From an uncultured Candidatus Saccharibacteria bacterium (GTDB lineage: Bacteria; Patescibacteriota; CAZHWT01), in the NCBI GenBank assembly GCA_964554805.1, contig CAZKPX010000002.1:49889-113888 (forward strand): a DNA stretch of 64,000 bases. Reading direction: 5' to 3'. Position numbers and translations under genes: made by a program. Below the pieces are notes generated by a model. It worked only from the letters and a program-made list of their open reading frames with translations. It was not told where the DNA came from and made no database searches. Positions within the stretch are counted from its first letter, which is position 1; the number at the start of each line of letters is the position of its first letter. Below, one piece after another: positions 23,082-42,227 of the stretch.

Positions 23082-23140
23082 ATGAGTATTATACTATGCT
23101 TCAGCTTAGCCATGCTTAAGTTGGTATGGATTTGAAATTA

Positions 23141-23181: not shown

Positions 23182-23194
23182 GATGGGCAATGGA

Positions 23195-23668
23195 CTAGAC
23201 TAGAAGTGCCTGGCCTTGATTGACGATAGCCTGGAGACTATTTCTTTGGTCTCTGATTTCTCCGAGTGGTTCGTCAAATGTTTGACGAGATCTTAGCTCG
23301 TCATCGAGCTGAATAAGCTGATCTTCGGCCTGCGCCAGGGCATTTTGCAGCACCGTGTTGCAATGCTGTAAGACCTTTTTTATGAACTGGTCGACCAGTT
23401 CGGGTGGTAGATCTTGGCTTCTGTCGCTATGAGAAACTTCTTGAATTTCAAGCTGGCGACGATTGTCGTATCTGGTAATCTTCCAGTTGGCCCTTTCTGA
23501 ATTTTCCGGGAAGGGCATATATAGGCCAAGGATAGCCTGGATGTGGATTATGGGTGGGTTGTGCTGGAGGAAAAGTATCCCTTGCTGCTCACAGGCGTTA
23601 AGCTGGTCGAGCACTTCTACCCTGGTCATCACTTGAACGAACAAGCTGGTTTGATTGCTTGCCGACAT
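23195..23668 (-). CDS. Hypothetical protein
   Basis: 157 aa, no recognisable motif. Confidence 0.4.
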   Translation of the reverse strand: MSASNQTSLFVQVMTRVEVLDQLNACEQQGILFLQHNPPIIHIQAILGLYMPFPENSERANWKITRYDNRRQLEIQEVSHSDRSQDLPPELVDQFIKKVLQHCNTVLQNALAQAEDQLIQLDDELRSRQTFDEPLGEIRDQRNSLQAIVNQGQALLV

Positions 23669-23744
23669 TTTTAACTATCCTTCACTAGAACGAATACGTC
23701 AGCTATCTTGTAGCATTTTAGTAGTAATAAATCAAGCGATAGTC

Positions 23745-25508: not shown

Positions 25509-27372
25509 AGGTGTTAAGGCTTTGCTGAGAATTATAAATTTGAACGTAGTCAGGGGATGATTTTAATAATTGTTTATGCGTGCCACGAGCCAAGAGTTCG
25601 CCATCCATCAATAGGAGGATCTGATCGTAGCCATCGATTGAGGTAATTTTTTGAGTCACAGAAATGAGTGTTAGTTGCGGATATAAGCGTTTGATATTGG
25701 CGATAATCTTGGCTTCAGTATTGATATCCACTCTGGCGGTGAAATCATCGAGCAGTAAGACTGATGGGTTAAGGGCTAGGGCTCGGGCCAACATTAAGCG
25801 TTGTTTTTGGCCGCCCGACAGACTGGAACCGCGCTCTGAAACTACTGTTTGCAAGCCTTGGGGAAGATTGTTGATAAAGTCAGTCAAATCGGCCGCTTCG
25901 ATGGCTTTGTCCAGTTCGGTCGGCCCTACCTCATTATTGAATGCAATATTCTGCTCTAAGCTGAGGTTGAAGACTGAGCTGTCTTGAAAAACTAAACCAA
26001 CTTGTTGGTAGAAAGATTTTTTGTCCAGCTGTTCGAGCGGTTGATCGTCGTACAGTATGGCGCCATTGGTGGGCGGGATTAGGCCAGCTAGGGTGTACAG
26101 CAGCTGACTTTTACCCGCGGCAGTCGGACCGATGATTGCTGTTTTGCTGCCTGGTTGTAGATCAAAATTTATATCCTTGAGAACTTGCTTTTGATCGTGG
26201 GTGAGCCCCAGGTTTTGGACCTGGACATGTCCGGAAAGTTTTTGATCGAGTGTGCCGGTGTGTTCAGGCGGTTCGATAGCGAGAACTGCGGCTACGCGTC
26301 CGTAAGATGCACTGGCTTCGGCCATCATGCTGCTCATGATGCCCAACATAATGATTGGCCAGATTATTAACCCCAGATAACCATTAAAAGCAGTTAGGTC
26401 GCCGAGCGTCATTTGCTCATTGATGACTTGATAGCCGCCATATACCAGAATAATTAAGACAGCTAGGTTGGCGAAGAAGCCGACCGAAGGGATGATGATG
26501 GCAAATAATTGAACGATCTTGAGCCCAATGGACAGTGATTCTTGGTTGGTCTTGCTGAAACGAGCGATTTCATCGTGATTGGAATACAAGACTCTAATCA
26601 GGGCCGAGCCCATAATTGTTTGATTGATAACGGCGTTGAGCTTGTCGATGACTTCTTGGGCGGAAATGAATAATTTGGAAGCTTTGCCGAAGACAAAACC
26701 AAAGGTGCCGCCGATCAGGGGGATAATTACTAGGACCGCTAAGCCGAGCTTCCAATTGATAACAATCAGGATGATGCTGGCCATTACTAACATAAATAAT
26801 GATGAGATAGCCATGGAAACTGTTGAGCCAACGAATAGCTTAACATTGTCGACATCTGAAGTGATATTGGTTAGCAACTTGGCTGGATCATTATTTTGAA
26901 TCTGTAGGTATGACTGATGCGCTATCTTGTGACTCAGTTGCTGGCGTAGGTCTCGTGCAACCTTTTCAGCAGTAAAGGCTTGGATTATGTTCTGCAGATA
27001 GGCAAAAACCAAGATGCCGACTATTAACAATGAGAATATAATTGCCACAGATTCGAAATGGTATTGTCCGGCGGTGAATTTATCAATACTTTGACCAATG
27101 AGCCAAGGCAGCATGAGCGCTAAACCGCTGGTGACTGATGTTGTTAGTAGGACTGCAGCTATCAGCCACTTGTATGGCTTGAGGACGGCGAAGATATTTG
27201 CCTGCGGGGCAGTTGGTGTTTCGGTAACAGCGGCTGGCTCTACTTCCTGCCTGTCTGGTGATGGGGAATCGAGTTGTTTTTTGGTTGATGATTTGGCCAT
27301 AGAACAAAGTTTTTTGCAAGGGTTTCTTAGTGTTTTTTTGAGTTTAAAATAGCGATCGCCTGGTTTTGGCAA
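25489..27372 (-). CDS. ABC exporter, fused permease-ATPase; partner of 23745..25508 (heterodimeric pair)
   Basis: TMD plus Walker A GPTAAGKSQ, signature LSGGQKQR, Walker B LLLDDFTA. A 20-nt overlap with the downstream partner suggests coupling. N-terminal start is uncertain (an alternative is MAKSST at 27300). Confidence 0.8.
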   Translation of the reverse strand: MPKPGDRYFKLKKTLRNPCKKLCSMAKSSTKKQLDSPSPDRQEVEPAAVTETPTAPQANIFAVLKPYKWLIAAVLLTTSVTSGLALMLPWLIGQSIDKFTAGQYHFESVAIIFSLLIVGILVFAYLQNIIQAFTAEKVARDLRQQLSHKIAHQSYLQIQNNDPAKLLTNITSDVDNVKLFVGSTVSMAISSLFMLVMASIILIVINWKLGLAVLVIIPLIGGTFGFVFGKASKLFISAQEVIDKLNAVINQTIMGSALIRVLYSNHDEIARFSKTNQESLSIGLKIVQLFAIIIPSVGFFANLAVLIILVYGGYQVINEQMTLGDLTAFNGYLGLIIWPIIMLGIMSSMMAEASASYGRVAAVLAIEPPEHTGTLDQKLSGHVQVQNLGLTHDQKQVLKDINFDLQPGSKTAIIGPTAAGKSQLLYTLAGLIPPTNGAILYDDQPLEQLDKKSFYQQVGLVFQDSSVFNLSLEQNIAFNNEVGPTELDKAIEAADLTDFINNLPQGLQTVVSERGSSLSGGQKQRLMLARALALNPSVLLLDDFTARVDINTEAKIIANIKRLYPQLTLISVTQKITSIDGYDQILLLMDGELLARGTHKQLLKSSPDYVQIYNSQQSLNTYELQAD

Positions 27373-27398
27373 TTGCCATATTTTACCATAGATACAGC

Positions 27399-27424
27399 AA
27401 AAGAGCCACTAGCGCGGCTCTTTT
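27399..27424. terminator. Hairpin terminator downstream of the aquaporin gene (minus strand)
   Basis: aaaagagcc-actagcgc-ggctctttt (9-bp stem) with flanking A and T runs. Confidence 0.5.
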
Positions 27425-27439
27425 GGTATTTATGTAAAC

Positions 27440-28063
27440 CTACTTTTCGTCGGATGGCTTTAACTGCGTGTAGGCCAGGCTGGCCAAGGCTCCGCCGACT
27501 AGCGGTCCAACAAGGTATAGTCCAATTCCAGACCAGTACTGAGAGATGTTTGATAGGTCGAAAAGGAGAGGGCTAATGCCCACGGCTGGATTAAAGGCTG
27601 CCCCGGATATAGATCCGACACAGAAAGCGCCGGCGACCACTGTTAAGGCGATGGCCAATCCAAAGTACTGGTTACCTTGAGCCTTTTTGGGTAGCGCCAC
27701 ATTGAGAACAGTGAATGCTAGCAAGAAGGTGAAGATGATTTCGGCAGATACAGCGGTTAACCAATTTACTGATTCGCCGGGAGCGGGAATAAACTTTTGA
27801 CTAAGAATGAAGAAGCTGACTGCAGCAGCCAACAAGCCACCGATCATCTGAGCTACCACATATCGACCGAGTTCCAGACTGGAGATTTTTTTCTGCATCC
27901 AGATGGCTAGAGATACTGCTGGATTAAAGTGTGCTCCTGAAACCGGCGCACCTATATAGATAATGGCTGCCAGTACCGCTCCAATGGCAAAGATATTGCC
28001 ACTCATGGCTACTGTTAGAACGAGAAAGAACGTTCCCAGTAACTCGACTGCATATTTTTTCAT
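27440..28063 (-). CDS. Aquaporin / MIP-family channel
   Basis: Two NPA boxes, GAHFNPAVSLA and GAAFNPAVGIS; 6 TM helices; ~207 aa. Confidence 0.8.
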   Translation of the reverse strand: MKKYAVELLGTFFLVLTVAMSGNIFAIGAVLAAIIYIGAPVSGAHFNPAVSLAIWMQKKISSLELGRYVVAQMIGGLLAAAVSFFILSQKFIPAPGESVNWLTAVSAEIIFTFLLAFTVLNVALPKKAQGNQYFGLAIALTVVAGAFCVGSISGAAFNPAVGISPLLFDLSNISQYWSGIGLYLVGPLVGGALASLAYTQLKPSDEK

Positions 28064-28278
28064 AGCTGTCCCCTTATAGTATGTAATGACTTTACTATAT
28101 ATCGAGCAGGCAAGGGTGTAAAGGATTTATTAATTTTGAACAGCGGTATTTCTTTAACTGAATCTTTTTGAAAATTTTATTCTAATAATTCAAACTCTTG
28201 CTCGTTGATTCAAACATGCAATATATGCTTCAAATTGAACGGAATGTAGTAACCGCCCGGAGTGACCGGGCGGTTAGC

Positions 28279-28737
28279 CTAGTTGAGGTGAGTTTGTTTA
28301 TACCGAGTGGTTGAACCAATGTCAGGTTGACTGTCAATAGATAATACCAGCAACTGCTCAATGGGTTGACCAAACTGTCGACTAATCAGGTCAACTAGAA
28401 CGCGGTGTCGGATGTCGAGGAAATCAACAATCTCGATCGGTGTTTGCTTGAAGTGGGAGCCTTCGAGATGATTCTTTAACTTTTGAGTAAACTGAGGTTC
28501 ATCGTTGTATTGTGGGAAGGCGAGCAGAATCATGTGGGGCAAAACCTGCCCATAAATGGCTTCCACTTTGTCTTTGACCTCCAACAATATATATTCCAGC
28601 ATATCTTCGGTAAGGAGTAGGGTTGCATTGATAGGAATAACAATGGACGCCAGGTTGTTCTGTCTTACTCCGCAGTCTGTAATCAAAAGGTCCGGAAAGA
28701 GGTAGTTGCCGGAGCTATCTTTCTGCAAAAACCACAT
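28279..28737 (-). CDS. Hypothetical protein
   Basis: 152 aa, no recognisable motif. Confidence 0.4.
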   Translation of the reverse strand: MWFLQKDSSGNYLFPDLLITDCGVRQNNLASIVIPINATLLLTEDMLEYILLEVKDKVEAIYGQVLPHMILLAFPQYNDEPQFTQKLKNHLEGSHFKQTPIEIVDFLDIRHRVLVDLISRQFGQPIEQLLVLSIDSQPDIGSTTRYKQTHLN

Positions 28738-28822
28738 TGCTCACTCTCCCTTTGTCGTCTCGGCCCTGTAGGGAGTTTATAAGCTTTTGAATACATAAAG
28801 TCAATTTTGTATATAAATCTAT

Positions 28823-28868
28823 AAAAATGGAACCACCCCCGATGGTCCGCGTGTGCGGGTCGGGGGTG
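28823..28868 (-). terminator. GC-rich hairpin terminator downstream of the 28888..29727 gene
   Basis: cacccccga ... tcgggggtg 9-bp arms (28834-28842 / 28860-28868), followed on the minus strand by a T-run (plus-strand aaaaa 28823-28827). Confidence 0.55.
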
Positions 28869-28887
28869 TTTGGAATGTGTTCCTTGC

Positions 28888-29727
28888 TTAGGAAACCCAG
28901 AAGTTGGGTTCCGGTCTCCAATCGAGACCCTTTTGAACCATGTTGCCGATGTAGTTTCGGCGTATATATCCAAGCGCGACGAGAAGGATCAGCCATCCGA
29001 AAACGCCGACAATGCTGCCGGTCGTGTGCCAGATGAACCAGGTGGCCACAGCTAGTGTGGCAACCATTGCCGTGTTGGGATGAAGCCAGAACTGCTGGCG
29101 TTTCATGGCAACCGTGCGCGCTTTGCTTTGTAGTAGCCAGAGCAATATGAGCGCGGCCAATGCCATCGAGATCAAGGTGCTTGCTAGCGTCTCGTCATTT
29201 ACATAGGCCCGAGTAGCGCCAACAAGCGCAGTGAGGATTGTTATGGTAACCGCCAAAGTGACGAGTGCGCGATGTCGGGTCTTTATCTCAGCCGCCCAGC
29301 TAATGAACTGTAGGCTGGCGAAGATAGTAATGATAATACCCGCCAAAATTACTCCAAGCTGGAATGTCATCAGCTGCTCTGATGCCAGAACAGCGAAAAA
29401 GGCGGCAAAGAGCCCAAGGCCGTATAGGCCGCCTGATAGCGATTGCCTGTCAGCGCCTTTCTTGGTGTGAGATTTGAATATATCAGCCGCAGCCCCATCT
29501 GATGGGATGAGGATGTGCTCGACGATGACATACACAAGCACAAGCGTGCTTGAGATGCGGATTCCCAGCCACCAGCCGTCCTTCCAGCCAGCATCGAAGC
29601 CGGCTTTGAGCGTCTGAAACGCGATATAGAGAACCATGAGTCCTCCGATGATCCCAATTGCATTGGTGATCATGGTTGGTATCCCGCTTGTGCGGGGAGG
29701 GTATGTTTCGATGATCTGAGTACGCAT
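28888..29727 (-). CDS. Polytopic membrane protein of unknown function
   Basis: 279 aa with 7 or more hydrophobic helices. Confidence 0.45.
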   Translation of the reverse strand: MRTQIIETYPPRTSGIPTMITNAIGIIGGLMVLYIAFQTLKAGFDAGWKDGWWLGIRISSTLVLVYVIVEHILIPSDGAAADIFKSHTKKGADRQSLSGGLYGLGLFAAFFAVLASEQLMTFQLGVILAGIIITIFASLQFISWAAEIKTRHRALVTLAVTITILTALVGATRAYVNDETLASTLISMALAALILLWLLQSKARTVAMKRQQFWLHPNTAMVATLAVATWFIWHTTGSIVGVFGWLILLVALGYIRRNYIGNMVQKGLDWRPEPNFWVS

Positions 29728-29856
29728 CGCTTGCTACCTTTCATTGTAAAAGAACAACATTCCAGCTGCCATTGTACCAAATTATAGGCGTAAAGTCAAA
29801 TGCTATAGGTCGCTAGTATAAGCGAGGACAGAGAAGAAAGAAGTGAGAAATTGGGG

Positions 29857-30912
29857 TTATTTGTCTCTGTTAGTACATTTATCGACTAGGGCTAGGAAGG
29901 GTTGTTGTTGGTCTGTGCTAAGAGAGAGTTGATTGAGGGAGTTGGTGGCTTGGGTGGCGTAGGACTGGATGAGGGCTTCAGTTTGGGATTTGGCGGTGCT
30001 ACTGTCCCCTATTTGCCTGACCTTTTCGACATCTGAAAGAGTTACGTTGGGATTGCCCCAGACTTGGGCGAAATAAGCTTGATCTTGGGGTTTGGCTAGT
30101 TGTTGGATGAGAGCGAAGAAATGAGTCTTTTTGCCTTCGCGTAGATCGCTAGTTATGGGTTTGCCAGTGGTTTCTGCATTGCCATAGACTCCTAGAAGAT
30201 CGTCAGCTAACTGAAAAGCAACGCCTAAGTTGTGACCGAAGTCGGTTAAATGCTGAATAGATTGCTTATCGGCGGAAGCAAGTATGGCTCCAATAACTAA
30301 TGGACCGATAAATGAGTAGCTGGCCGTTTTGTAATGAGCGATTTTGAAATAATCAGTAGGCTCGAAATCAGGAATGGTGCCTTCCATATCCAATAGCTGG
30401 CCGCCGGCTACCTCAAAGATAGTTTGACCCAGTTGAGTGATGGCGGCCAGTTTTTGATCGGCCGGGAATCTGGTCTGGCTGATTAATTGATAGGCTAAGG
30501 AAATAGTCAGGTCGCCGGCCAACAGAGCGGCACCGTTGGCATAGTGATTGGTGTCCTGACGGGCGTTTTTGTAGATGGTAGCATAGGTGCCGGTAATATT
30601 ATCCTGGCCATAACGGGTGATATCGCGGTCAATAATGTCGTCATGGACTAACAAGGCGAAGTGTAAGACTTCCTGGGCTGCGGCTACCTGCATAATGTCA
30701 TCCAGCTCCTGGTCAGCGAAAGTCTGATATGCCAGATAGGTCAAATAAGGCCGGATACGCTTGCCGCCGACCATCAGTAGCTGCTCCATGGATTGCCATA
30801 GTCTGGCGTAGGCTGGATCGATGTCAGCTGCTTGATGGCGATATGTGTTCATGTGTTGCTGGAGGATGATGTTGATTTGATCTTTAACTTGTGCGGGATT
30901 GAGAAGAGACAT
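29857..30912 (-). CDS. Polyprenyl diphosphate synthase (trans-isoprenyl diphosphate synthase family)
   Basis: First Asp-rich motif LLVHDDIIDRD and second motif FQLADDLLG, with overall IspA/GGPPS-like conservation. Confidence 0.85.
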   Translation of the reverse strand: MSLLNPAQVKDQINIILQQHMNTYRHQAADIDPAYARLWQSMEQLLMVGGKRIRPYLTYLAYQTFADQELDDIMQVAAAQEVLHFALLVHDDIIDRDITRYGQDNITGTYATIYKNARQDTNHYANGAALLAGDLTISLAYQLISQTRFPADQKLAAITQLGQTIFEVAGGQLLDMEGTIPDFEPTDYFKIAHYKTASYSFIGPLVIGAILASADKQSIQHLTDFGHNLGVAFQLADDLLGVYGNAETTGKPITSDLREGKKTHFFALIQQLAKPQDQAYFAQVWGNPNVTLSDVEKVRQIGDSSTAKSQTEALIQSYATQATNSLNQLSLSTDQQQPFLALVDKCTNRDK

Positions 30913-34895: not shown

Positions 34896-35810
34896 ATGAC
34901 AACCAAGACCGAGACTGAAGATATATTCGCTTCGCCGCAAGAGCTGTATGACGAATATGTGGGTGATGAAAGCACCATGAGCGCGGCAAGGTTTTGTGGC
35001 GAAATGTATAGGACTTTTTGTCAGGTCAAAATTGAACGGAAAGAGATTCCTGAAAATGCTACAGAATATATGCTAGGCCATGCCTTTGCTGAGTTTAGCG
35101 GACGCAATCTTTCCTCGTTGCATCAAATTGCACGAGGTGAAACGCCTCTGAATTTGGACATGGCTCGCTTGCTGTTCCTTCATTGGGGATTCTCTGAGGG
35201 TGAAACCGACAAACTAGTCGAAACTACTGAAAAGAAGAACGACGAGTTTGAGCAAGGGTACGAGTTTGGCCATATGCCGCGCACCCTGGTAGGCGGCCTG
35301 CCTCGATACCAAAAGTCAAGAAAACTGGTAGGTGGTCGCCCTCCCAAGCGCAATAGTGTGCCTTCTGAGGCTGAAAGCAGTAAAGAGCCTGTTGTCGATG
35401 AGTCTATTGATGATGTGAAAAGGCCCACCCAAGATAATAATCAACAGCTGAGACAGGTTGTGTCCAAGTCACTTTTGCAGGGCAAACAGCCTTACAGGTG
35501 TCGTGTGATGGTGGTGCAGTCTGCAGTAATTAAGGTTTTCCCGACTCGCGCCGATCTGGATTTATTCAAGGAGCAGATATCTCAGCAAAGCGGGTTGCCT
35601 ATAAACTATGTTGACCGGGCGGTGTGGAACACCAATCCTTCAGAGAAAGCTTTGTTTAGGGTCGCATCCGCCTTGGTTCGCCATGGATGGTTGACTGTCG
35701 AGCAGAGCTTGAATCTGCAAGAAGACTTGCAAGAGATTGAGGACCAGACGGCTAAGCCGCGATGGATATCGCCGATGCTGGAGATTGAGGAGACAGACCC
35801 TCACGAATAG
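34896..35810 (+). CDS. XRE-like HTH protein with C-terminal repeated 'GWLT...LQ.IED..KPR' modules; paralog of 57650..59017
   Basis: N-terminal segment FCGEMYRTFC...SGRNLSSLHQIARGETPLNLDMARLLF resembles HTH_XRE (IS..IERG...P.......LA). The C-terminal module ALVRHGWLTVEQSLNLQEDLQEIEDQTAKPRWISP recurs in the paralog. Start placed at the ATG after GAAGGAG (the track starts at a TTG, 34869). Confidence 0.5.
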   Translation: MTTKTETEDIFASPQELYDEYVGDESTMSAARFCGEMYRTFCQVKIERKEIPENATEYMLGHAFAEFSGRNLSSLHQIARGETPLNLDMARLLFLHWGFSEGETDKLVETTEKKNDEFEQGYEFGHMPRTLVGGLPRYQKSRKLVGGRPPKRNSVPSEAESSKEPVVDESIDDVKRPTQDNNQQLRQVVSKSLLQGKQPYRCRVMVVQSAVIKVFPTRADLDLFKEQISQQSGLPINYVDRAVWNTNPSEKALFRVASALVRHGWLTVEQSLNLQEDLQEIEDQTAKPRWISPMLEIEETDPHE

Positions 35811-35819
35811 TGTATTAGT

Positions 35820-35860
35820 GCGCCTCTTGTTTGGAGTAAACAGGAGGCGCTTTTCTTTTT
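35820..35860 (+). terminator. Rho-independent terminator
   Basis: gcgcctcttgt / acaggaggcgc stem (35820-35830 / 35840-35850), then TTTTCTTTTT. Confidence 0.65.
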
Positions 35861-36015: not shown

Positions 36016-36102
36016 GCCAGGGTGGTGGAATGGTATACACGACGGACTTAAAATCCGTTGCCCTCATACGGCTTAAGGGTTCGAGTCCCTTCCCTGGTAC
36101 CA
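36016..36102 (+). tRNA. tRNA-Leu (anticodon UAA), type II with a long variable arm
   Basis: Acceptor GCCAGGG/CCCTGGT. Anticodon stem acgga/tccgt with loop cTTAAaa. 16-nt variable arm. T-arm aaggg-ttcgagt-ccctt. Encoded CCA at 36100-36102. Confidence 0.8.
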
Positions 36103-36248
36103 CTCAGCACCATTATTTGATTGTGTTTGGTAGAATATAGGTAATACTTTTGGCTTCAACTTTAGAGTTTGTCTTAAAGATCAAATAAATTTGGCTGCAA
36201 CTCGTCCAGCCAAAAAATTTACAAATGAATATTTATTAATTTAATTTT

Positions 36249-36322
36249 TTGGCTGATAGTGAAATGGCATCACGACAGGTTTTGGTCCTGTTATTCTAGG
36301 TTCGAATCCTGGTCGGCCAGCC
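36249..36322 (+). tRNA. tRNA-Gln (anticodon UUG)
   Basis: Acceptor TGGCTGA/TCGGCCA with the U1-A72 pair typical of bacterial tRNA-Gln. D-stem gtga/tcac. Anticodon stem acagg/cctgt with loop ttTTGgt. T-arm ctagg-ttcgaat-cctgg. Discriminator G, encoded CCA. Confidence 0.8.
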
Positions 36323-36381
36323 AAAAGAAAGCGCCTCAGCGAAAGCTGGGGCTTTTTCTTTGGTTGTTCGACATTGGATTT
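36317..36381 (+). repeat. Direct repeat copy 1 (tRNA-Gln 3' end plus terminator plus 30 nt); about 90% identical to 40116..40181
   Basis: cagccaaaagaaagcgcctcagcgaaagctggggctttttctttggttgttcgacattggattt aligns with 40116-40181 (3 mismatches and 1 indel). Confidence 0.6.
36332..36360 (+). terminator. Terminator hairpin after tRNA-Gln
   Basis: gcctcagc-GAAA-gctggggc, then TTTTTCTTT. Confidence 0.6.
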
Positions 36382-36426
36382 CGAACCTCTGCGAGGCAGT
36401 AAGGGGCGTCGTGCGAGTGATTTATC

Positions 36427-36451
36427 GCGACATCCTGGTCGGCCAGCCAAA
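36427..36451 (+). repeat. Partial duplicate of the tRNA-Gln 3' end (20/20 nt identical to 36305-36324)
   Basis: atcctggtcggccagccaaa is repeated about 125 bp downstream of the tRNA, an att-like signature. Confidence 0.55.
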
Positions 36452-36566
36452 TTGGATGTTGTTAGAAATAGACCGGGTATCCTCGGCCTATTTTTGGATT
36501 TATTAATTTGTTGTAGGCAACAGCCTATCAGGTCTCCGCTTATTGGGCAGAATATTCGCTGTCTAC

Positions 36567-36953
36567 TTATAGCAAGATGCTGGCAATCGCCACAGCCAAG
36601 CCGATAGCAGCAGAGCTACCAAAGATTTGCAGGGCTTTGCGACGGTCTTGGGCTCGAAACTCGGCCCGCATAACCGTATCAGTTTTGCCAACTTCGGAAT
36701 TAAGGTTGAATACACCCTTGAGGCCAAAGCCAGCGCAGAAGCGTAAGTGGGCCTGCAGGAAACCGCTCGCAGCCAGGGTTGCTGGGAAAAATACTAACAA
36801 TCGAGCCGCCACTGGTGCGTCCAGCCAAACCAGTAGGCTGAGCAGCAGGGCTGCCGCCGCTAAGCCCAGCCACCCGGCCTGGCGACGCTTGGCAATCTCG
36901 GCTGGACCGATATTGCAGACACCGGGGATATAGTGATGTGTTGTGGTCTCCAT
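36567..36953 (-). CDS. Hypothetical membrane protein, last gene of the MacB-like operon (higher-GC segment)
   Basis: 128 aa, 3 TM helices. Its GC is higher than the surrounding genome, and it follows the permease gene on the same strand with a 21-nt gap. Confidence 0.4.
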   Translation of the reverse strand: METTTHHYIPGVCNIGPAEIAKRRQAGWLGLAAAALLLSLLVWLDAPVAARLLVFFPATLAASGFLQAHLRFCAGFGLKGVFNLNSEVGKTDTVMRAEFRAQDRRKALQIFGSSAAIGLAVAIASILL

Positions 36954-36974
36954 AGAGCCTCCTCTAACTCTGGC

Positions 36975-38282
36975 TTATTCGTATCGCAGGGCGTCAATTG
37001 GGTTTTGGCGGGCGGCTCTTCGGGCAGGCAGTGAGCCAGCCAGGAAGGCTATGCCCATAATAATAGCCATAGTTAAGCCGATTGATTGCCAGGAGAATAC
37101 CAGCAGGTCAAAGCCAGGTAAATCTTGCAAGAAGCTGCCTGAGGCGATGGCGTTAATGACATTGCCCGCCAAGATACCAATAGCCGCTCCCAAGGCACTT
37201 CCCCAGAAACCAATAATGACGGCCTCCAGACTAAATAGGGTGAAGATTCTGCCCCGAGGCATGCCCATAGCTTTCATTAAGCCGATTTCTTTAGTCCGCT
37301 CTTGAACGGCCATCAGCAAGGTATTGACAATGCCGAAGCTGGCGGCCAGCAGGGCGATGGCAGCGAAGAAGTTTAAGACCATGACAATAGCATCAATAAC
37401 TTGCTTGAATACCCCAATCTGATCTTCAACCGTCGTTCCTCTAAACCCTTGCTGCTCTAAGGTGTCTTTGATGGTTGCTAATTCTTCTGGGCTAGTATCT
37501 GGATGCACCTGGGCGATAACTTGCTGGAATTGATCAGCTTGAGCCGCCGGTATGCCGGTGATCTGAACAGCTCGAATGGCTTGGGTCAATGACTGGTTGC
37601 TTTGGCCACCGGCGCCTGAGCTAATCAGTGATTGCTCGGGCACGCCAACCACTCGGGCTTGTATCTGCTGCTGTGCTCCGGTAGCCGAGCTGACCCCCAA
37701 AGTTACCATCTGCCCAGTAGCGGCCTCGGCAGTGCTAAAGCCCAAAGGTTGGACAAAACTGTCTGCCAGTAGCAGCTGGTATTCAGAAGCTTGGTTATCT
37801 AAGCTCTGGCCTGCTGCCACATCGATATGGAGACCATCAACATAAGGTTGCATCATCAGACGGAACTTCTGGCCATTAGTCCCTTGGATGTAATCAGGCA
37901 TAGGGATAATCATTGGCTCAGCACTGGTTATCCCAGGCACGGCGCTAATGGCTTGAACGTCGGCATTGGTTAAGACAGGTATGCTGACCGGTCCAAAAGA
38001 GCCAGAGGAAAAGGCTTGATCGGGATCATAGGGCTGAGGTCCGCCGGAAAAGGGATCTTCAAATCTGGCTTGAACGATCAGCATGTTTTCGGCACCAATG
38101 GTGCCTAGTTGTTTATCGATATAGCTGGAAACGCCGGCACCTATGCCATTGGTCAGAGTCAGGGTGAAAGCACCGACAAAAATAGCAATAATGGTGAGCG
38201 CTGTTCTTAATTTACTTCTAAATATATTGCCGCTGGCTGTGGTCAGAATATCCCAATAGGTCATGTTACTGAACCTCCTCAA
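36975..38282 (-). CDS. MacB-type ABC transporter permease (FtsX/MacB family, 4 TM with a large periplasmic domain)
   Basis: TM1, a ~250-aa extracytoplasmic domain, then three C-terminal TM helices and FtsX-like blocks (e.g. KEIGLMKAMG, DALRYE). Confidence 0.8.
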   Translation of the reverse strand: MRRFSNMTYWDILTTASGNIFRSKLRTALTIIAIFVGAFTLTLTNGIGAGVSSYIDKQLGTIGAENMLIVQARFEDPFSGGPQPYDPDQAFSSGSFGPVSIPVLTNADVQAISAVPGITSAEPMIIPMPDYIQGTNGQKFRLMMQPYVDGLHIDVAAGQSLDNQASEYQLLLADSFVQPLGFSTAEAATGQMVTLGVSSATGAQQQIQARVVGVPEQSLISSGAGGQSNQSLTQAIRAVQITGIPAAQADQFQQVIAQVHPDTSPEELATIKDTLEQQGFRGTTVEDQIGVFKQVIDAIVMVLNFFAAIALLAASFGIVNTLLMAVQERTKEIGLMKAMGMPRGRIFTLFSLEAVIIGFWGSALGAAIGILAGNVINAIASGSFLQDLPGFDLLVFSWQSIGLTMAIIMGIAFLAGSLPARRAARQNPIDALRYE

Positions 38283-38958
38283 TGATATGGCCGTCTACTA
38301 TCTTGATTTGCCGATCGCACCGACTGGCTAAATCCTGATCATGGGTGACGATTATAAGGGTGATACCGTTGTTCTTGTTTAGACTAAAAAGCATATCTTC
38401 AATAACTTTGCCAGTGGCGGTGTCCAGATTTCCGGTCGGCTCATCGGCAAAGATAACCGATGGGTTATTAATCAGTGCTCGGGCAATCACTACCCGCTGC
38501 TTTTGACCGCCGCTTAAATCATTGGCCTTGCTTTTGGCTTTGTCGTCTAATTCAACCTGACGCAAGACTTCCATGCCCCGCCGCTTGCGCTCTCTAGCGC
38601 CAACCTTGCCGATTTTGAGTGGCAGAATGACATTTTCCAAAACGGACGCGTTGGCATTGAGGAAGAATTGCTGGAAGACAAAACCGAATGACTCATTGCG
38701 CAGCTGGTTGAGTTTGGCACTGCTGAGTTTTTCCGCGTCTTGGCCGTTGATAACTATGCTGCCCTGACTGGGACTATCCAGCAAGGCCATGATGTGCATC
38801 AGGGTTGATTTGCCAGAACCACTTTTGCCGATAATAGCCACACTCTCCCCCTTGCCAATGGTTAAACTAAGATTGTGGAGGGCTGTAAAGGCGCTATTGC
38901 CCTTACCATAGGTTTTACTGAGATTACTGGCTTCAAGAGTAGGACTGGTTTTAGTCAT
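38266..38958 (-). CDS. ABC transporter ATP-binding protein (MacB/LolD-type)
   Basis: Walker A GKSGSGKSTL, Q-loop, signature LSGGQKQRV, Walker B VIFADEPTGNLD. The ATPase stop overlaps the permease start (38266-38282). Confidence 0.85.
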   Translation of the reverse strand: MTKTSPTLEASNLSKTYGKGNSAFTALHNLSLTIGKGESVAIIGKSGSGKSTLMHIMALLDSPSQGSIVINGQDAEKLSSAKLNQLRNESFGFVFQQFFLNANASVLENVILPLKIGKVGARERKRRGMEVLRQVELDDKAKSKANDLSGGQKQRVVIARALINNPSVIFADEPTGNLDTATGKVIEDMLFSLNKNNGITLIIVTHDQDLASRCDRQIKIVDGHIIEEVQ

Positions 38959-39223
38959 GATCCTCCTGAGGCGATTTTTTTGATGACTGCTTATTTACCG
39001 ACACCTGCTCTTGAAGATCAAACATGCCTTGGCTGATCTGTTTTAGATGCTCTTCAAATACCTCAAGGCGAACCAGAGCTACGGCTCCTTTCATGGGAGT
39101 GTCAAAGACCAGCATTTTGTCCCCAGCACTGACTTGCAGTGCTTCTCTTGCCTCTACTGGTATAACCACCTGGCCTCTTTCGCCTACAGTGACGGTGCCG
39201 TACAGTTTTGGATTGCCAAACAT
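38951..39223 (-). CDS. AbrB/MazE/SpoVT-family DNA-binding protein (swapped-hairpin barrel), first gene of the ABC operon
   Basis: GTVTVGERGQVVIPVEAREALQVSAGDKMLVFD matches the SpoVT_AbrB consensus. 90 aa. Overlaps the ATPase start by 8 nt. Confidence 0.55.
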   Translation of the reverse strand: MFGNPKLYGTVTVGERGQVVIPVEAREALQVSAGDKMLVFDTPMKGAVALVRLEVFEEHLKQISQGMFDLQEQVSVNKQSSKKSPQEDHD

Positions 39224-39330
39224 ATATTTCTCCTATTAGTCATATCATTCATACATTTCATATAGTACGCTATCTATAACCACTAGACCAGCATAAAGAC
39301 AAGCAACAAATAAAGCACGGGGGTACCGCA

Positions 39331-39984
39331 ATGTCACTTATACGAGGAACCGTTCTCGAATTCACTAGTAAGCACCATGAGCATGATGATATCTATAGCT
39401 TTCACTTTAAGCCAACAAAACCGCTTAAACACAAAGCCGGACAGCATGGCTTATTTTCTCTGAAAGGATTTTTGGGGATTAAGGCCTTCTCCCTCACTTC
39501 ATCGCCCGAAGATAATGAGGTGATTATTACTACTCATGTACGCCAGCAGAGTCGATTTAAACAGTTGCTGGATGCCTTGCAACCTGGTGATACGGTTAAG
39601 ATGCGGGGACCGATTATGAACTTTGTGCTTAAGCCTGATGAGCGCGAGGTGGTGTTTTTAGCTCAAGGTATTGGCATTACGCCGTACCGGTCATTACTGC
39701 GCCATATTCGCAACCAGAAACTCAGTGTTCACAGTACACTGCTCCATGTCAGTTCATCTGAGCATACCTTTAAAGCAGAAACCAGCAGATTGGCTACCAA
39801 GGCTATCTATGCTGTCAACTCTCAAGAATTCCGGCAGGTGCTTGATGTCATACTAATGGATCATTCCCAAGCCACCTACTATATATCTGGAGGAGGACAG
39901 TTCTTGACCAGTACCGTTAAGCAATTGAAAGATAAGGGGATTAAGGGCTCCAGTATTCGCCAGGATCGGTTTTTGGGTTACTAG
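39331..39984 (+). CDS. Ferredoxin-NADP reductase-type FAD/NAD(P)-binding oxidoreductase
   Basis: FAD-binding motif K-A-F-S-L-T-S (RxYS-like) and NAD-binding motif LAQGIGITP. ~217 aa, two-domain FNR-like size. Confidence 0.5.
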   Translation: MSLIRGTVLEFTSKHHEHDDIYSFHFKPTKPLKHKAGQHGLFSLKGFLGIKAFSLTSSPEDNEVIITTHVRQQSRFKQLLDALQPGDTVKMRGPIMNFVLKPDEREVVFLAQGIGITPYRSLLRHIRNQKLSVHSTLLHVSSSEHTFKAETSRLATKAIYAVNSQEFRQVLDVILMDHSQATYYISGGGQFLTSTVKQLKDKGIKGSSIRQDRFLGY

Positions 39985-40115
39985 CCTAGCATGCTTGTTT
40001 GGGGCCAAAATCACGCACCCTTGTTTTATGTAAGCATGGCGCACCATCTTGTTTGTGGCATTCACTAGAGATACATATGTGGCTATGATGATATATACAT
40101 CTGTATCGTGACGCT

Positions 40116-40181
40116 CAGCCAAAAGAAAGCGCCTCAGCGAAAGCTGGGGGCTTTTCCTTTTTGTTGTTCGACCTTGGATTT
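40116..40181 (+). repeat. Direct repeat copy 2 of the tRNA-Gln 3' flank/terminator segment
   Basis: See 36317..36381. Includes the same terminator hairpin (gcctcagc-gaaa-gctggggg). Confidence 0.6.
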
Positions 40182-40190
40182 TGGGTGCAG

Positions 40191-40755
40191 TCAACTAAAG
40201 CGGAACAACGTTGCGCGCAGATAGGCTTGAGGGCTTCTAAATACGTGTGCTTGGTTACACCGGGCCATCCATTCATTAAGGAATACCTGCAGTCTGGCCG
40301 TAGTCATCCCTACATGAGAGAGGATGCGCCGTGCACGTCGCTTCATTCGACTCCACAGATTCTCAATACGATTGGTGCCGGTAAAGTGTCCTTTAGAATG
40401 GTTCCAGATCTCCCGACCATAGCCCATCCATTCAATGCCTGCATAATAGCCTGCTGTGTCAGTAACGACCAAGGTACTTGGGGTGACATGCCTCTCCAGA
40501 AAACCTTGAACCAGATCTGCATCTGGTGCTGAAGGCAATATCTCCACTTTTATCCGACCACTACCTTGCTCAATGGCGCCAATAACAATTGCTTGTCTGC
40601 CGTAGCGTTCTTTGCCAAACCATGACTCATCCAGCTCCACCACCCCATCTAGCTGGTCACGGTCAGGCTCTTGAGGTAGGTGCTCCCTAAAGCGCGTATA
40701 CCAGCGGTTAACCGTTAGTAACCCCGGGGGTTGCTTTCTAGCTGAACCTCTGAGT
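40191..40755 (-). mobile_element. IS1595-family (ISXO2-like) transposase remnant, N-terminally truncated (pseudogene)
   Basis: VELDESWFGKERYGRQAIVIGAIEQG...TDTAGYY...HS.GHFTGTNRIENLWSRMKRR matches the DDE_Tnp_IS1595 domain (VEVDETY.GGK...). The reading frame is open upstream to a stop at ~40755 and encodes only a partial HTH (NRWYTRFREHL). No zinc-ribbon N-terminus and no ATG start. Confidence 0.65.
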
Positions 40756-40922
40756 GCTTGTTTAGGAGAATGTGTTTACATACAAGGAGTAAAATAAGAA
40801 TATATGCTGCTGTGACAACTGAATGTTTCAGTCAGTTGAGTCAATATAAGCATAATCAAACAACCGGAGGTTCAGCCTCAGTTTAACTCTCGGGGTTCCG
40901 GAAAAGGTATTGGCTTTCCAGG

Positions 40923-40988
40923 TTAGCACTGGCCAACCTTTCCAGGCCATTTATCTCAGATAGCCGCGTTAGCACTTTATGGAAACTT
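40923..40988 (+). repeat. Composite ~65-bp intergenic element, copy A: two TTAGCACT(C/T)T half-sites flanking a TATCTCAGATA core, second half-site extended as TTAGCACTTTATGGAAA
   Basis: Read directly. Member of a 5-copy family (40.9, 42.2, 46.7, 47.7 and 52.7 kb), all in the same orientation. Confidence 0.55.
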
Positions 40989-41193
40989 TAGCTTTTCTAC
41001 CTAGCGATAAAACGCTTAGATGAACACTATAATAATTTAGGTCTATACAAAATATGGGCTACGGTGATTGATGAACCGTTATTTAATACGGCCAGAGTTT
41101 TGAGTTTGAAGATGACCTTTGAAATATTGACATACTCTGATTTTTCTGGTATGTAGAATGTATTGACCCACCACTAGTCAGGAGAAGGATGAG

Positions 41194-41385
41194 ATGTCAC
41201 CTGCGGACACGGTTATGGGTATTCCGGCGATCTTTATCCCATTCATCACTGGTCTGATTACTTGGATCCTTATAACGGTCTTATTTACCAAGGATGGTGG
41301 CGATATCGGCGATGCATTCGCGGCTGCCTGGGCGCCTGCCATGATTGTGGCTTTTATAACGATTTACTTCTTGGCAAAAGCCTAG
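41194..41385 (+). CDS. Small 2-TM membrane protein
   Basis: 63 aa with two hydrophobic helices, followed by a terminator. Confidence 0.4.
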   Translation: MSPADTVMGIPAIFIPFITGLITWILITVLFTKDGGDIGDAFAAAWAPAMIVAFITIYFLAKA

Positions 41386-41405
41386 TCTGTCCTTTTGTGT
41401 TTTAT

Positions 41406-41447
41406 GCCCCGTCTTCTTGATTGAAGGCGGGGCTGCATTTGTTTTAT
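41406..41447 (+). terminator. Rho-independent terminator
   Basis: gccccg-t-cttc / gaag-g-cggggc stem (41406-41433) and a T-rich tail. Confidence 0.55.
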
Positions 41448-41537
41448 GAGTAAATCTTGTGCTTAATCCTATAATCCTTTATAATTCATTATAGGCTAGT
41501 ATTTAACTAGCAAGACGTCTTATCAAAGGAGACTGAG

Positions 41538-42131
41538 ATGCGCTTGGAGGGACTGTTGTTTCAGGGGCCATACGATATGGCGGATGCTTTGACGGCGGCA
41601 AAAGTATGTCTGGTGCTTTGGCTTGTGGCTCTTGCCTCGGTAGGTTGTTTTATCTTCATTCAACGTGCCACGTTCCAACCACAGAGTTACTTCACCGACA
41701 ACCTGCTGGCAGCGCTGGGTAATCTCATCTTGTTTAGCCTGCTTGTGTTCGTGTTGATCGGAGTGGAATCGATATTTTTGTGGGGAGACAAGCCTGTCTA
41801 CACGATGCAGGATATGACCCAGGCCAACTTGTGGCCGTGGATCATCGGTCACTTGCTTGCAGGAATTGTATTACAGATGCTAGTAGTGGATAAATGGGGG
41901 TATGGGCAAATGAACACTCTCATTTTTTACTCAGCTGTTCCCGTGGCCGTTCCTCTGGTCGGTTTGATTTACCTTAGTATGCTGTGGTGGCCAGGCTTGT
42001 TCACCTTTCCAGTGCTAACAGCGACCGTCATGGTATCTCAAACTGCTGTTGTTGGTATATTAGCCGTTCCACTTGGTCTCATGGCCGTTTGGTTTGTAAT
42101 TTTAGGGCCATTGAAATGGTCTCTGAGCTAG
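41538..42131 (+). CDS. Polytopic membrane protein of unknown function
   Basis: 197 aa, 5-6 TM helices. Confidence 0.45.
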   Translation: MRLEGLLFQGPYDMADALTAAKVCLVLWLVALASVGCFIFIQRATFQPQSYFTDNLLAALGNLILFSLLVFVLIGVESIFLWGDKPVYTMQDMTQANLWPWIIGHLLAGIVLQMLVVDKWGYGQMNTLIFYSAVPVAVPLVGLIYLSMLWWPGLFTFPVLTATVMVSQTAVVGILAVPLGLMAVWFVILGPLKWSLS

Positions 42132-42227
42132 CCCATGCTGAGCCTCATTCTCTGACCAGGGAATGAGGCTCTTGTTGCAAGAAGGCAGTCTCAAGTATCT
42201 TTTTCATAAAATCTTTGATTTTCCACA

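What the first reader, a model, noticed from the sequence alone, without database searches (positions are those of the whole stretch)
36249..40755. tRNA-Gln integration hotspot: the tRNA 3' flank is duplicated around a GC-richer ABC-transporter cassette, followed by an IS1595 transposase remnant
Downstream of tRNA-Gln(UUG), the last 6 nt of the tRNA plus its terminator plus 30 nt (36317-36381) recur as a ~90% identical direct repeat at 40116-40181. The 3.7 kb between them has visibly higher GC. It carries a minus-strand operon (AbrB/SpoVT-like, MacB-type ATPase, MacB permease, small membrane protein) and a divergent FNR-like oxidoreductase.

A further exact 20-nt copy of the tRNA 3' end (36432-36451) lies 125 bp after the tRNA. 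This is the classic footprint of site-specific integration at a tRNA 3' end. Immediately after the second repeat is an N-terminally truncated IS1595-family transposase (40191-40755). No integrase gene is present.

This therefore looks like the decayed remains of one or two integration events. They define the left boundary of the accessory region that contains the NUDIX cluster and the giant GHKL gene. The two spurious ORFs 36241..36450 and 39853..40194 simply translate the repeat (shared PQLSLRRFLLA).
Basis: seen in the sequence. Interest (0 to 1): 0.6.

Follow-up and report, generated by a model that had tools for sequence, protein, structure and literature searches.

The report
Recombination scars beside a tRNA-Gln gene
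Next to a glutamine tRNA gene in an uncultured Saccharibacteria genome, short pieces of the tRNA's end and its terminator are repeated around an ordinary transporter operon and beside a dead insertion sequence: real but inactive scars of past DNA rearrangement, not a clearly foreign gene cassette.

Summary
The sequence features are all real. tRNA-Gln(UUG) lies at 36250-36323. A 64/66-nt unit, made of the last 6 nt of the tRNA, a long terminator hairpin and a 15-nt tail, recurs at 40116-40181 with 92% identity, and its first 34 nt are exact. An exact 20-mer running from the T-loop to CCA+2 recurs at 36432-36451. An IS1595 transposase lacking about 99 N-terminal residues abuts copy 2. No recombinase is present.

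The "GC-richer foreign cassette" reading is not supported. GC, tetranucleotide and codon usage of the 3.7 kb fall within the native range. The window's GC change-point is at about 40.75 kb (the IS remnant), not at the tRNA. The AbrB-ATPase-MacB-permease trio is a conserved Saccharibacteria operon, and its best non-self hit (65%) is no more distant than that of a core gene (59%).

An empty site could not be tested. The host is a deep-branching Saccharibacteria lineage with no close relatives in any collection searched.

Best reading (confidence about 0.45): inactive relics of recombination at the tRNA-Gln 3' end that now bracket resident DNA. A purely local duplication-deletion history trimmed by the IS is nearly as likely (about 0.3). 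This is an ordinary finding of low interest.

The parts
36016..36102 (+). tRNA-Leu(UAA). It has no partial copies elsewhere in the window.
36190..36216 (+). Hairpin TTTGGCTG-N9-CAGCCAAA between the two tRNAs. Its arms mimic the 5' and 3' ends of tRNA-Gln: TCGTCCAGCCAAAA matches the tRNA 3' end at 13 of 14 positions.
   Evidence: family D2; -9.4 kcal/mol, z -3.45
36250..36323 (+). tRNA-Gln(UUG), intact, with CCA encoded.
   Evidence: (57.3 bits)
36306..36325 (+). 20-mer copy a: last 2 nt of the T-loop, the T-stem 3' strand, the acceptor 3' strand, G, CCA and AA.
36318..36381 (+). Long repeat copy 1 (M1). The last 6 nt of the tRNA form the base of a roughly 22-bp GAAA-loop hairpin (36318-36366; terminator stem 36333-36352), followed by a 15-nt tail. 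This is the present tRNA-Gln terminator.
   Evidence: (-29.7 kcal/mol, z -4.7)
36382..36431 (+). Unique 50-nt spacer between M1 and the second 20-mer. It has no similarity to the tRNA body or to anything else in the window.
36432..36451 (+). 20-mer copy b: an exact, displaced tRNA-Gln 3' end with sharp edges on both sides.
36462..36497 (.). Second, unrelated terminator hairpin (T0). It lies directly after 20-mer b and faces the 3' end of the minus-strand operon.
   Evidence: stem 36473-36486; -15.9 kcal/mol
36567..36953 (-). 128-aa predicted membrane protein, last gene of the operon. It has no Pfam or NCBIfam family and is not linked to the operon in relatives.
36975..38264 (-). MacB-type ABC permease (MacB_PCD + FtsX), 429 aa.
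38266..38958 (-). ABC ATPase of the LolD/MacB type, 230 aa.
38951..39223 (-). AbrB/MazE-fold small protein. It overlaps the ATPase start by 8 nt. It is the conserved first gene of this operon in relatives.
39331..39984 (+). Divergent FNR-like flavin reductase, 217 aa (weak FAD_binding_6 and NAD_binding_1 matches).
40116..40181 (+). Long repeat copy 2 (M2). It has the same hairpin with a slightly weaker fold, placed to terminate the FNR-like gene. No tRNA remnant lies to its left.
   Evidence: (-24.1 kcal/mol)
40191..40775 (-). IS1595-family transposase remnant. The DDE domain is complete, about 99 N-terminal residues including the zinc ribbon are missing, and no inverted repeats were found. 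Its stop codon is 9 nt from the M2 edge.
40650..42200 (.). Support interval of the single best GC change-point of the window (best at about 40750): GC 0.472 to the left and 0.437 to the right.

Best explanation
The locus carries inactive scars of at least two recombination events at the 3' end of tRNA-Gln in a deep-branching Saccharibacteria chromosome.

Event 1. An element that used a 20-nt identity block (T-loop to CCA+2) integrated into tRNA-Gln. Almost all of it was later deleted. What remains is a 106-nt relic (36326-36431) between the rebuilt tRNA end and the displaced original end (36432-36451). The relic supplies the hairpin terminator that tRNA-Gln uses today. The displaced end is still followed by what was probably the original terminator (T0).

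Event 2. The same hairpin module, carrying the last 6-8 nt of the tRNA, is present again 3.8 kb downstream, at the edge of the AT-richer accessory region. There a later IS1595 insertion and deletion cut it off.

The AbrB-ATPase-MacB permease operon and the FNR-like gene caught between the two module copies are resident, lineage-typical DNA, not alien cargo. Nothing here is mobile now: there is no recombinase and the IS is truncated.

Shown: the repeats, their sharp edges, their position in the tRNA, the hairpins, the gene identities, the native-like composition, and the phylum-typical operon.
Inferred: that a site-specific integrase made the junctions, the order of events, and which side was the insert.
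For: - Neither repeat arises by chance, and both are in direct orientation downstream of the intact tRNA.
- All four flank comparisons are at chance identity, so the edges are junctions and not decayed homology. No tRNA body remnant lies left of either partial copy.
- The 20-mer spans the T-loop to the 3' end, a standard att identity-block location (own knowledge: Williams 2002, NAR 30:866; the reference is listed in PMC12302457).
- The sequences to the right of 20-mer a (module M1) and to the right of 20-mer b (terminator T0) are unrelated, as expected for attL and attR arms.
- All 5 differences between M1 and M2 lie in the right 32 nt and the left 34 nt are exact, as expected for a crossover within an identity block.
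- The module must derive from a tRNA-Gln context, because its hairpin base is the tRNA's own CAGCCA.
- tRNA-Leu, 150 nt away, has no partial copies.
- An IS remnant and an AT-richer, orphan-rich region adjoin the locus.
- Resident status of the ABC operon: GC, tetranucleotide and codon usage are within the native range. The GC change-point is at about 40.75 kb, so the cassette groups with the left chromosome. The AbrB-ATPase-permease trio is conserved in relatives. The best non-self permease hit is 65% and the best ATPase hit 71%, against 59% for the core polyprenyl synthase. Named hits for both searches are Saccharibacteria, Saccharimonadia or Patescibacteria.
Against: - No integrase or relic of one occurs anywhere in 64 kb.
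- The 20-mers bracket only 106 nt, far too little for any element, so a large deletion has to be assumed.
- The long repeat lies almost wholly outside the tRNA and begins exactly at the base of the hairpin. That could equally reflect hairpin-prone illegitimate recombination.
- Neither the att-like 20-mer nor a 27-nt core of the module occurs on any IMG/VR viral contig.
- No empty site or alternative arrangement could be found.
- The weak GC3 skew of the cassette genes, especially the FNR-like and AbrB-like genes, hints that at least part of the segment has not sat long in its present orientation.
Confidence: 0.45

Rival explanations
1. Purely local duplication and deletion, with no integrase. 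A tandem duplication copied a 3,798-bp unit (36318-40115), or just the tRNA flank, creating the novel junction 40115|CAGCC. The redundant second copy was then destroyed by an IS1595 insertion at the module/spacer boundary and by IS-associated deletions. Only the first 66 nt survive. The 20-mer and the acceptor-like hairpin at 36190-36216 are deletion relics of tandem tRNA-Gln gene copies.
For: - No recombinase is present.
- The composition is native-like and the operon is lineage-typical.
- Homology of copy 2 stops 9 nt from the stop codon of the IS remnant, as expected if IS insertion and deletion set that edge.
- The left edge coincides with the base of a strong hairpin, a known hotspot for illegitimate recombination (the hotspot property is own knowledge).
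- A third acceptor-end mimic lies just upstream of the tRNA, suggesting repeated local duplication of tRNA-Gln sequence.
- Deletions also produce sharp edges.
Against: - The sequences to the right of the two 20-mers are unrelated. A tandem duplicate of tRNA plus flank should share them.
- The differences between M1 and M2 are confined to one half: all five fall in the last 32 of 66 columns, which has probability (32/66)^5, about 0.03, if they were placed uniformly. Two of the five are homopolymer indels, however.
- Several independent, precisely placed deletions have to be assumed.
Confidence: 0.3
2. The 3.8-kb unit (module, spacer, 20-mer, ABC operon, FNR-like gene) entered as a circle by Campbell-type recombination across the 66-nt module downstream of tRNA-Gln. 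It may still be excisable, with the recombinase supplied in trans or by RecA.
For: - The 3,798-bp unit is bounded by direct repeats with a 34-nt exact core.
- The right halves of the repeats differ, as hybrid attL and attR would.
- GC skew and GC3 skew of the segment are weaker than in neighbouring genes.
- The operon sits in a different neighbourhood in each of the distinct relative contexts examined.
- The k=31 unitig graph of two samples fits either the integrated form or a circle plus an empty site.
Against: - GC, tetranucleotide and codon usage are native-like, and the cassette groups with the left chromosome.
- No near-identical copy exists elsewhere among 5.8 billion proteins; the best non-self hit is 65%.
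- Plasmid and phage databases gave only generic ABC hits.
- The unit has no recombinase.
- The donor circle would itself need to contain a displaced tRNA-Gln 3' end plus a terminator, which presupposes the other scenario in the donor.
Confidence: 0.1
3. The 65-nt module is one member of a dispersed terminator, REP or MITE-like hairpin repeat family of this genome. Its adjacency to tRNA-Gln is incidental.
For: - The unit is a self-contained long palindromic hairpin plus a short tail, and its edges sit at the hairpin base.
- Both copies sit in terminator positions.
Against: - There are only two copies in 64 kb. A covariance model with filters off finds nothing else above 12 bits apart from the palindrome's own reverse strand, and nothing in 157 kb of relatives' loci.
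- The first 6 nt of the module are the functional end of the tRNA. An inserted element would have to match CAGCCA by chance.
- Viral contigs that share the 20-nt stem-loop have unrelated flanks.
Confidence: 0.08
4. Assembly artefact: the contig was mis-joined across the 34-nt exact core, and the 3.8-kb piece belongs elsewhere or is an episome.
For: Independent Logan assemblies of two runs break at exactly this core into left, middle and right unitigs.
Against: - A 34-nt repeat is trivially spanned by 100-150-nt reads and by the larger k-mers used by MAG assemblers.
- All three unitigs are 100% identical to the window, and their ends match the expected graph for the window's order.
Confidence: 0.04

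Closest known systems
tRNA-gene-targeted integrative elements and genomic islands with attL/attR partial-tRNA direct repeats (Williams 2002, NAR 30:866; general island criteria as summarised in PMC12302457)
   Same: An intact tRNA is followed by direct-orientation partial copies of its 3' end. The 20-mer spans the T-loop to the 3' end as an att identity block does. The edges are sharp. An IS remnant and an accessory, AT-richer region lie nearby.
   Different: There is no integrase. The exact repeats enclose only 106 nt. The long repeat is terminator sequence outside the tRNA. The enclosed 3.7 kb has native composition and carries a phylum-typical operon. Sporadic distribution could not be tested.
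Tandem accretion hotspots at tRNA genes, such as Prochlorococcus islands/tycheposons with arrays of degenerate partial-tRNA repeats (own knowledge, not checked here)
   Same: Several partial copies of one tRNA's 3' end lie in series downstream of it and separate blocks of different history. Transporter genes are among the contents.
   Different: No element-encoded recombinase or other tycheposon hallmark genes are present. Only two or three relics are seen. Population variation is unknown.
Tandem duplication remnants trimmed by IS-mediated deletion
   Same: A direct repeat bounds a unit of native-like DNA. One repeat copy ends at an IS remnant. The breakpoint lies at a hairpin.
   Different: This does not explain the unrelated right flanks of the two 20-mers, or why all differences between the long repeats fall in one half.
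IS1595 family insertion sequences (Pfam PF12762, NCBIfam NF033547)
   Same: The DDE_Tnp_IS1595 domain is complete (Pfam 5.7e-15; NCBIfam 76 bits vs cut-off 75). The WYTRFREH motif is shared with a full-length 270-aa relative.
   Different: About 99 N-terminal residues, including the zinc ribbon, are missing. No terminal inverted repeats or 8-bp target duplication were found. There is a single copy in the window. It is a dead remnant.
MacB-type (type VII) ABC exporters: separate LolD-like ATPase plus MacB_PCD/FtsX permease
   Same: The domain architecture matches, and the ATPase and permease genes are adjacent (1-nt gap).
   Different: The operon is preceded by a translationally coupled AbrB/MazE-fold gene that is conserved in Saccharibacteria relatives. 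No membrane-fusion or outer-membrane partner is present. The substrate is unknown.

Membership tests
tRNA-integrated genomic island / integrative element | Lies directly at the 3' end of a tRNA gene | tested here: met
   tRNA-Gln is at 36250-36323 and the repeats start inside it at 36306 and 36318.
tRNA-integrated genomic island / integrative element | Bounded by direct repeats that contain the 3' part of the tRNA (attL/attR) | tested here: inconclusive
   The 20-mer (18 nt of tRNA) is exact but bounds only 106 nt. The repeat that bounds the 3.7 kb contains only 6 nt of tRNA and otherwise consists of terminator and flank.
tRNA-integrated genomic island / integrative element | Encodes an integrase (tyrosine or serine recombinase) near an att site | tested here: not met
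   Pfam scans of the cassette and IS-remnant ORFs and of ORFs sampled across 41-61 kb found none. tblastn of the whole window with tyrosine and serine recombinases from related loci gave no hit better than E = 0.27.
tRNA-integrated genomic island / integrative element | Composition differs from the host chromosome | tested here: not met
   GC is 0.487 vs 0.470 on the left. 11% of same-size windows are at least as GC-rich and 32% are at least as distant in tetranucleotide usage. Codon-usage distance is 0.752 against a null of 0.625 +/- 0.122. The GC change-point is at about 40750, not at the tRNA. Only GC skew is atypical.
tRNA-integrated genomic island / integrative element | Sporadic distribution: an empty site in related genomes | not testable with these tools
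   The nearest relatives are only 55-59% identical in a core gene and are not syntenic on the tRNA side. The tRNA and left-flank searches found no relatives.
tRNA-integrated genomic island / integrative element | Cargo has foreign phylogenetic affinity or near-identical copies in other taxa | tested here: not met
   Permease homologues form a smooth 65-50% identity gradient, and the named hits are Saccharibacteria or Patescibacteria. The operon is conserved in relatives. Plasmid and phage searches gave only generic hits.
IS1595 family insertion sequence | DDE_Tnp_IS1595 catalytic domain | tested here: met
   PF12762 at 5.7e-15 covering profile positions 1-149 of 153. NF033547 at 76 bits vs cut-off 75.
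IS1595 family insertion sequence | Full-length transposase with N-terminal zinc-ribbon region | tested here: not met
   The frame is closed upstream of about 40775. The full-length relative L015 (270 aa) aligns only from its residue 100.
IS1595 family insertion sequence | Terminal inverted repeats and 8-bp target-site duplication | tested here: inconclusive
   No inverted repeat was found around 40100-41400. The only relatives retrieved are 33-34% identical and gave no usable ends.
Dispersed REP/MITE-like hairpin repeat | Many copies scattered over the genome | tested here: inconclusive
   Two copies only in 64 kb and none in relatives' loci. The rest of the genome could not be read.
Integron gene cassette | attC-type recombination site and an IntI integrase nearby | tested here: not met
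   No integrase was found. By eye the hairpin lacks the RYYYAAC / GTTRRRY core sites; no formal attC model was run.
MacB-type ABC transporter operon | MacB_PCD + FtsX permease with an adjacent ABC ATPase gene | tested here: met
   PF12704 at 1.1e-12, PF02687 at 5.6e-23 and PF00005 at 5.9e-35. LolD/MacB-type NCBIfam hits are below the equivalog cut-offs.

The most novel reading that the evidence does not exclude
The 3,798-bp unit is a still-mobile, recombinase-less cassette of Saccharibacteria. It would excise and reintegrate through the 34-nt exact core of a terminator hairpin that overlaps the CCA end of tRNA-Gln, using a recombinase supplied in trans or RecA. That would make it a small mobilisable transporter cassette in a CPR genome. 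The k=31 unitig graphs of two independent samples fit the integrated form just as well as a circle plus an empty site.
Probability: 0.06. Interest if true: 0.55.

Novelty: new member of a known kind. Interest (0 to 1): 0.2.

Why it matters
The importance is modest.

- It documents recombination scars at a tRNA gene in a deep-branching, poorly sampled Saccharibacteria lineage, where little is known about integrative elements.
- It is a cautionary case. A tRNA, direct repeats and an IS remnant look like a textbook island. Yet composition, phylogenetic affinity and the change-point analysis show that the enclosed operon is resident-type DNA, and that the true compositional boundary lies 4.4 kb further right.
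- For annotation, the two repeat-translating ORFs should be dropped, and the IS1595 ORF should be marked as a pseudogene.

Tried and rejected
1. Empty site or synteny. None of these gave a usable relative:
- The left-flank protein found no relative in genome contigs and only itself among 5.8 billion proteins.
- The tRNA-Gln 3' 25-mer in genome-contig hit only four unrelated Armatimonadota tRNA-Gln genes.
- A 37-mer of the tRNA had 0 hits in metagenome contigs.
- The closest core-gene relatives (59% and 55%) are not syntenic on the tRNA side and carry no tRNA.

2. Exact-protein look-ups returned only unitigs of the same strain from SRR16798008 and SRR16798009. These break at the 34-nt core and show no alternative arrangement.

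3. attP on viruses. The 20-mer and a 27-nt core of the module are absent from IMG/VR. Three viral contigs share the 20-nt GAAA stem-loop but have unrelated flanks, so this is coincidence.

4. Conserved synteny of a 212-aa gene and a NUDIX gene beside the ABC operon in L022 and L023. Rejected, because neither is detectably homologous to the window's FNR-like or NUDIX genes.

5. The tail of the repeat as the IS1595 terminus. This could not be tested. Metagenome relatives are only 33-34% identical and show no clear inverted repeats.

6. A decayed second tRNA-Gln left of copy 2 or left of 20-mer b. Rejected: the alignments are at chance and there is no Rfam tRNA hit.

7. Plasmid and phage BLAST of the segment gave only generic ABC-ATPase or phage tRNA-Gln hits.

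8. Naming the organism from cluster records returned no names. A literature search on the run accession found nothing.

9. Integron attC reading. Rejected: no IntI is present, and no core-site consensus was seen by eye.

Full report
OBSERVATION

ARAGORN and Rfam place tRNA-Leu(UAA) at 36016-36102 and tRNA-Gln(UUG) at 36250-36323, with CCA encoded.

The long direct repeat is real. It spans 36318-36381 and 40116-40181, 3,798 bp apart. Of 66 aligned columns, 61 are identical, with three substitutions and two single-base indels. The first 34 nt are exact, and all five differences lie in the right half. Dinucleotide-preserving shuffles gave no matches to the 34-mer.

The exact 20-mer ATCCTGGTCGGCCAGCCAAA occurs at 36306-36325 and 36432-36451, with a chance expectation of about 0.01. 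In tRNA terms it is the last two T-loop bases, the 3' strands of the T stem and acceptor stem, the discriminator G, CCA, and two flank bases.

Pfam and NCBIfam confirm the gene content:
- a 128-aa gene with no family, 36567-36953(-);
- a MacB_PCD+FtsX permease;
- a LolD/MacB-type ATPase;
- an AbrB/MazE-fold gene that overlaps the ATPase start;
- a divergent FNR-like reductase;
- an IS1595 DDE remnant at 40191 to about 40775.

A full-length 270-aa IS1595 relative aligns to the remnant only from its residue 100. The two ORFs that merely translate the repeat are there.

ANATOMY OF THE REPEATS

The long repeat is essentially one long hairpin. CAGCCAAAAGAAAGCGCCTCAGC-GAAA-GCTGGGGCTTTTTCTTTGGTTG folds at -29.7 kcal/mol with z = -4.7, and copy 2 folds at -24.1 kcal/mol. 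A 15-nt tail follows. Both copies are called as intrinsic terminators.

The base of the hairpin in copy 1 is the tRNA's own last six nucleotides. The module must therefore originate from a tRNA-Gln context and cannot be an element that happened to land there.

All four flank comparisons are at chance identity: left and right of the long repeat, and left and right of the 20-mer. Neither partial copy has any tRNA-body remnant to its left. Both repeats therefore have junction-type edges.

The second 20-mer is followed immediately by a different, good terminator (T0, 36462-36497) and then by the 3' end of the minus-strand operon.

Copy 2 of the long repeat stops 9 nt from the stop codon of the IS remnant.

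tRNA-Leu has no partial copies. A hairpin at 36190-36216 between the two tRNAs mimics both acceptor ends of tRNA-Gln.

IS THE 3.7 KB FOREIGN?

Composition says no.
- GC is 0.487 against 0.470 for the left 36 kb, and 11% of same-size windows are at least as GC-rich.
- Strand-symmetric tetranucleotide distance is ordinary: 32% of windows are at least as far.
- Codon usage of the operon lies about 1 sd from same-strand native gene blocks: 0.752 against 0.625 +/- 0.122, with 10% of native blocks at least as far.
- A likelihood change-point scan puts the single GC shift of the window at about 40,750, with support 40,650-42,200. GC is 0.472 to the left and 0.437 to the right. A boundary at the tRNA end fits far worse, with LLR 17.9 against 36.4.

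The segment therefore looks 'GC-richer' only in comparison with the AT-richer region to its right.

The one anomaly is GC skew. This genome has a strong G excess on the plus strand that is independent of gene orientation. The cassette sits at about 0, in the lowest 2% of windows. Its GC3 skews are weak for the ABC genes and near zero for the AbrB-like, FNR-like and IS genes.

Phylogenetic affinity also says no.
- The permease has more than 4,000 homologues in a smooth 65-50% identity gradient. The named ones are Saccharimonadia, Saccharibacteria or Patescibacteria. None from another organism is near-identical.
- The core polyprenyl synthase 5 kb to the left has a best non-self hit of only 59%, again with Saccharibacteria names. 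The host is therefore a deep-branching Saccharibacteria lineage, and the cassette genes are no more distant from relatives than a core gene is.
- The AbrB-ATPase-permease trio recurs as a unit in relatives (L010, L011, L020, L021). ATPase plus permease recur in L009, L022 and L023. The neighbourhood differs between the distinct contexts, and the operon is never next to tRNA-Gln.
- Plasmid and phage databases give only generic hits.

COMPARATIVE TESTS THAT FAILED

- The left-flank 304-aa protein is an orphan.
- tRNA-based scans found only unrelated Armatimonadota tRNAs in genome contigs and nothing in metagenome contigs.
- The 59% relative (L012) is syntenic leftward of the polyprenyl synthase (MIP, two ABC genes, HflX) but not rightward. 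Synteny is therefore already lost at about 30.9 kb.
- Exact-protein look-ups returned only unitigs of the same strain from two runs. They are 100% identical to the window and break inside the 34-nt core: the left unitig ends at 36347, the middle one spans 36322-40145, and the right one starts at 40120. At k=31 that graph fits the window's order and also fits a circle plus an empty site, so it decides nothing.
- No recombinase or recombinase relic exists in the window.
- A covariance model of the module finds only the two copies in 64 kb and none in 157 kb of relatives' loci.

INTERPRETATION

The 20-mer has the span and the sharp, differently flanked edges of an att identity block (own knowledge of Williams 2002; the reference is listed). 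However, it encloses only 106 nt.

The simplest account has two steps. First, an element integrated at tRNA-Gln and was then almost entirely deleted. It left its tRNA-proximal arm, which is the hairpin module now serving as the tRNA terminator, and 50 nt of its distal arm. Second, the displaced tRNA end, its original terminator T0 and the ABC operon are the original flank.

The second copy of the module, 3.8 kb away at the compositional boundary and cut off by a dead IS1595, needs a second event. That event could be a related integration, a secondary-site integration, or a Campbell-type exchange. The confinement of all differences to the right half of the repeat fits a crossover within the 34-nt identity block.

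A rival needs no integrase. In it, a tandem duplication of the 3,798-bp unit had its second copy destroyed by IS insertion and deletion. This explains the native-like composition and the IS-abutting edge equally well. It explains the unrelated right flanks of the two 20-mers less well.

I give these weights:
- integration-relic reading: 0.45;
- duplication-deletion reading: 0.30;
- dispersed hairpin family: 0.08;
- mis-assembly: 0.04.

VERDICT

It overstates two points. The cassette is neither GC-rich nor foreign by any test available, and the tRNA is not the compositional boundary of the accessory region.

The feature is a new instance of a well-known kind and of low general interest. Its value lies mainly in annotation and as a target for a simple read-mapping test.

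Noticed in passing
window 36190-36216: The hairpin TTTGGCTG-CAACTCGTC-CAGCCAAA between tRNA-Leu and tRNA-Gln looks like a tRNA-Gln reduced to its two acceptor ends. TCGTCCAGCCAAAA matches the tRNA 3' end at 13 of 14 positions. Its 3' arm can also pair over 13 bp with the tRNA-Gln leader and 5' end (36243-36255). It could be a tRNA-Leu terminator, a relic of a deleted tRNA-Gln copy, or a processing structure.
   Followed up: partly
window 1-64000: A strong G>C skew on the plus strand (mean +0.156) holds whatever the gene orientation. The many minus-strand genes in the left 35 kb therefore have C-rich third positions (GC3 skew -0.2 to -0.6). Only 36-41 kb is near zero. Either most genes here lie on the lagging-type strand or the skew convention is unusual in this lineage.
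   Followed up: partly
window 40650-42200 (best at about 40750): The single best GC change-point of the window falls at the truncated end of the IS1595 remnant: 0.472 on the left and 0.437 on the right. The AT-richer right-hand region carries orphan small membrane proteins, an HTH gene, an HD gene, four NUDIX genes and the 1,477-aa gene.
   Followed up: partly
window 38951-39223; L010 8627-8866; L011 3119-3424; L020 2830-3075; L021 898-1143: An AbrB/MazE-fold small protein is the conserved, translationally coupled first gene of this MacB-type ABC operon across Saccharibacteria relatives (41-45% identity). Its role is unknown; it could be a regulator or a transporter accessory.
   Followed up: partly
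window 21963-30912 vs L012 4044-11847: Synteny with the closest sampled relative (59% polyprenyl synthase) covers polyprenyl synthase, MIP, two ABC exporters and HflX. It ends immediately to the right of the polyprenyl synthase. The variable region may therefore begin near 30.9 kb, well to the left of the tRNAs.
   Followed up: partly
window 34896-35810: The 304-aa protein just upstream of the tRNA pair is a complete orphan. Its only hit among 5.8 billion proteins is itself, and it has no Pfam family.
   Followed up: partly
window 36231-36242, 36498-36509, 28125-28136: The AT-rich 12-mer ATTTATTAATTT recurs just upstream of tRNA-Gln, just after terminator T0, and once at about 28.1 kb. It may be a promoter-like element or chance.
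   Followed up: no
L011 11576-13285 and L013 14605-15591: Related Saccharibacteria loci do carry recombinases: a large serine recombinase 6 kb from the ABC operon in L011, and a tyrosine recombinase in L013. Such enzymes exist in the phylum even though none is in this window.
   Followed up: no
window 35820-35860: A strong terminator follows the orphan gene. Its 3' part, GAGGCGCTTTTCTTT, is the reverse complement (13 of 15 positions) of the start of the repeat module. This is judged to be chance-level similarity between terminators.
   Followed up: partly
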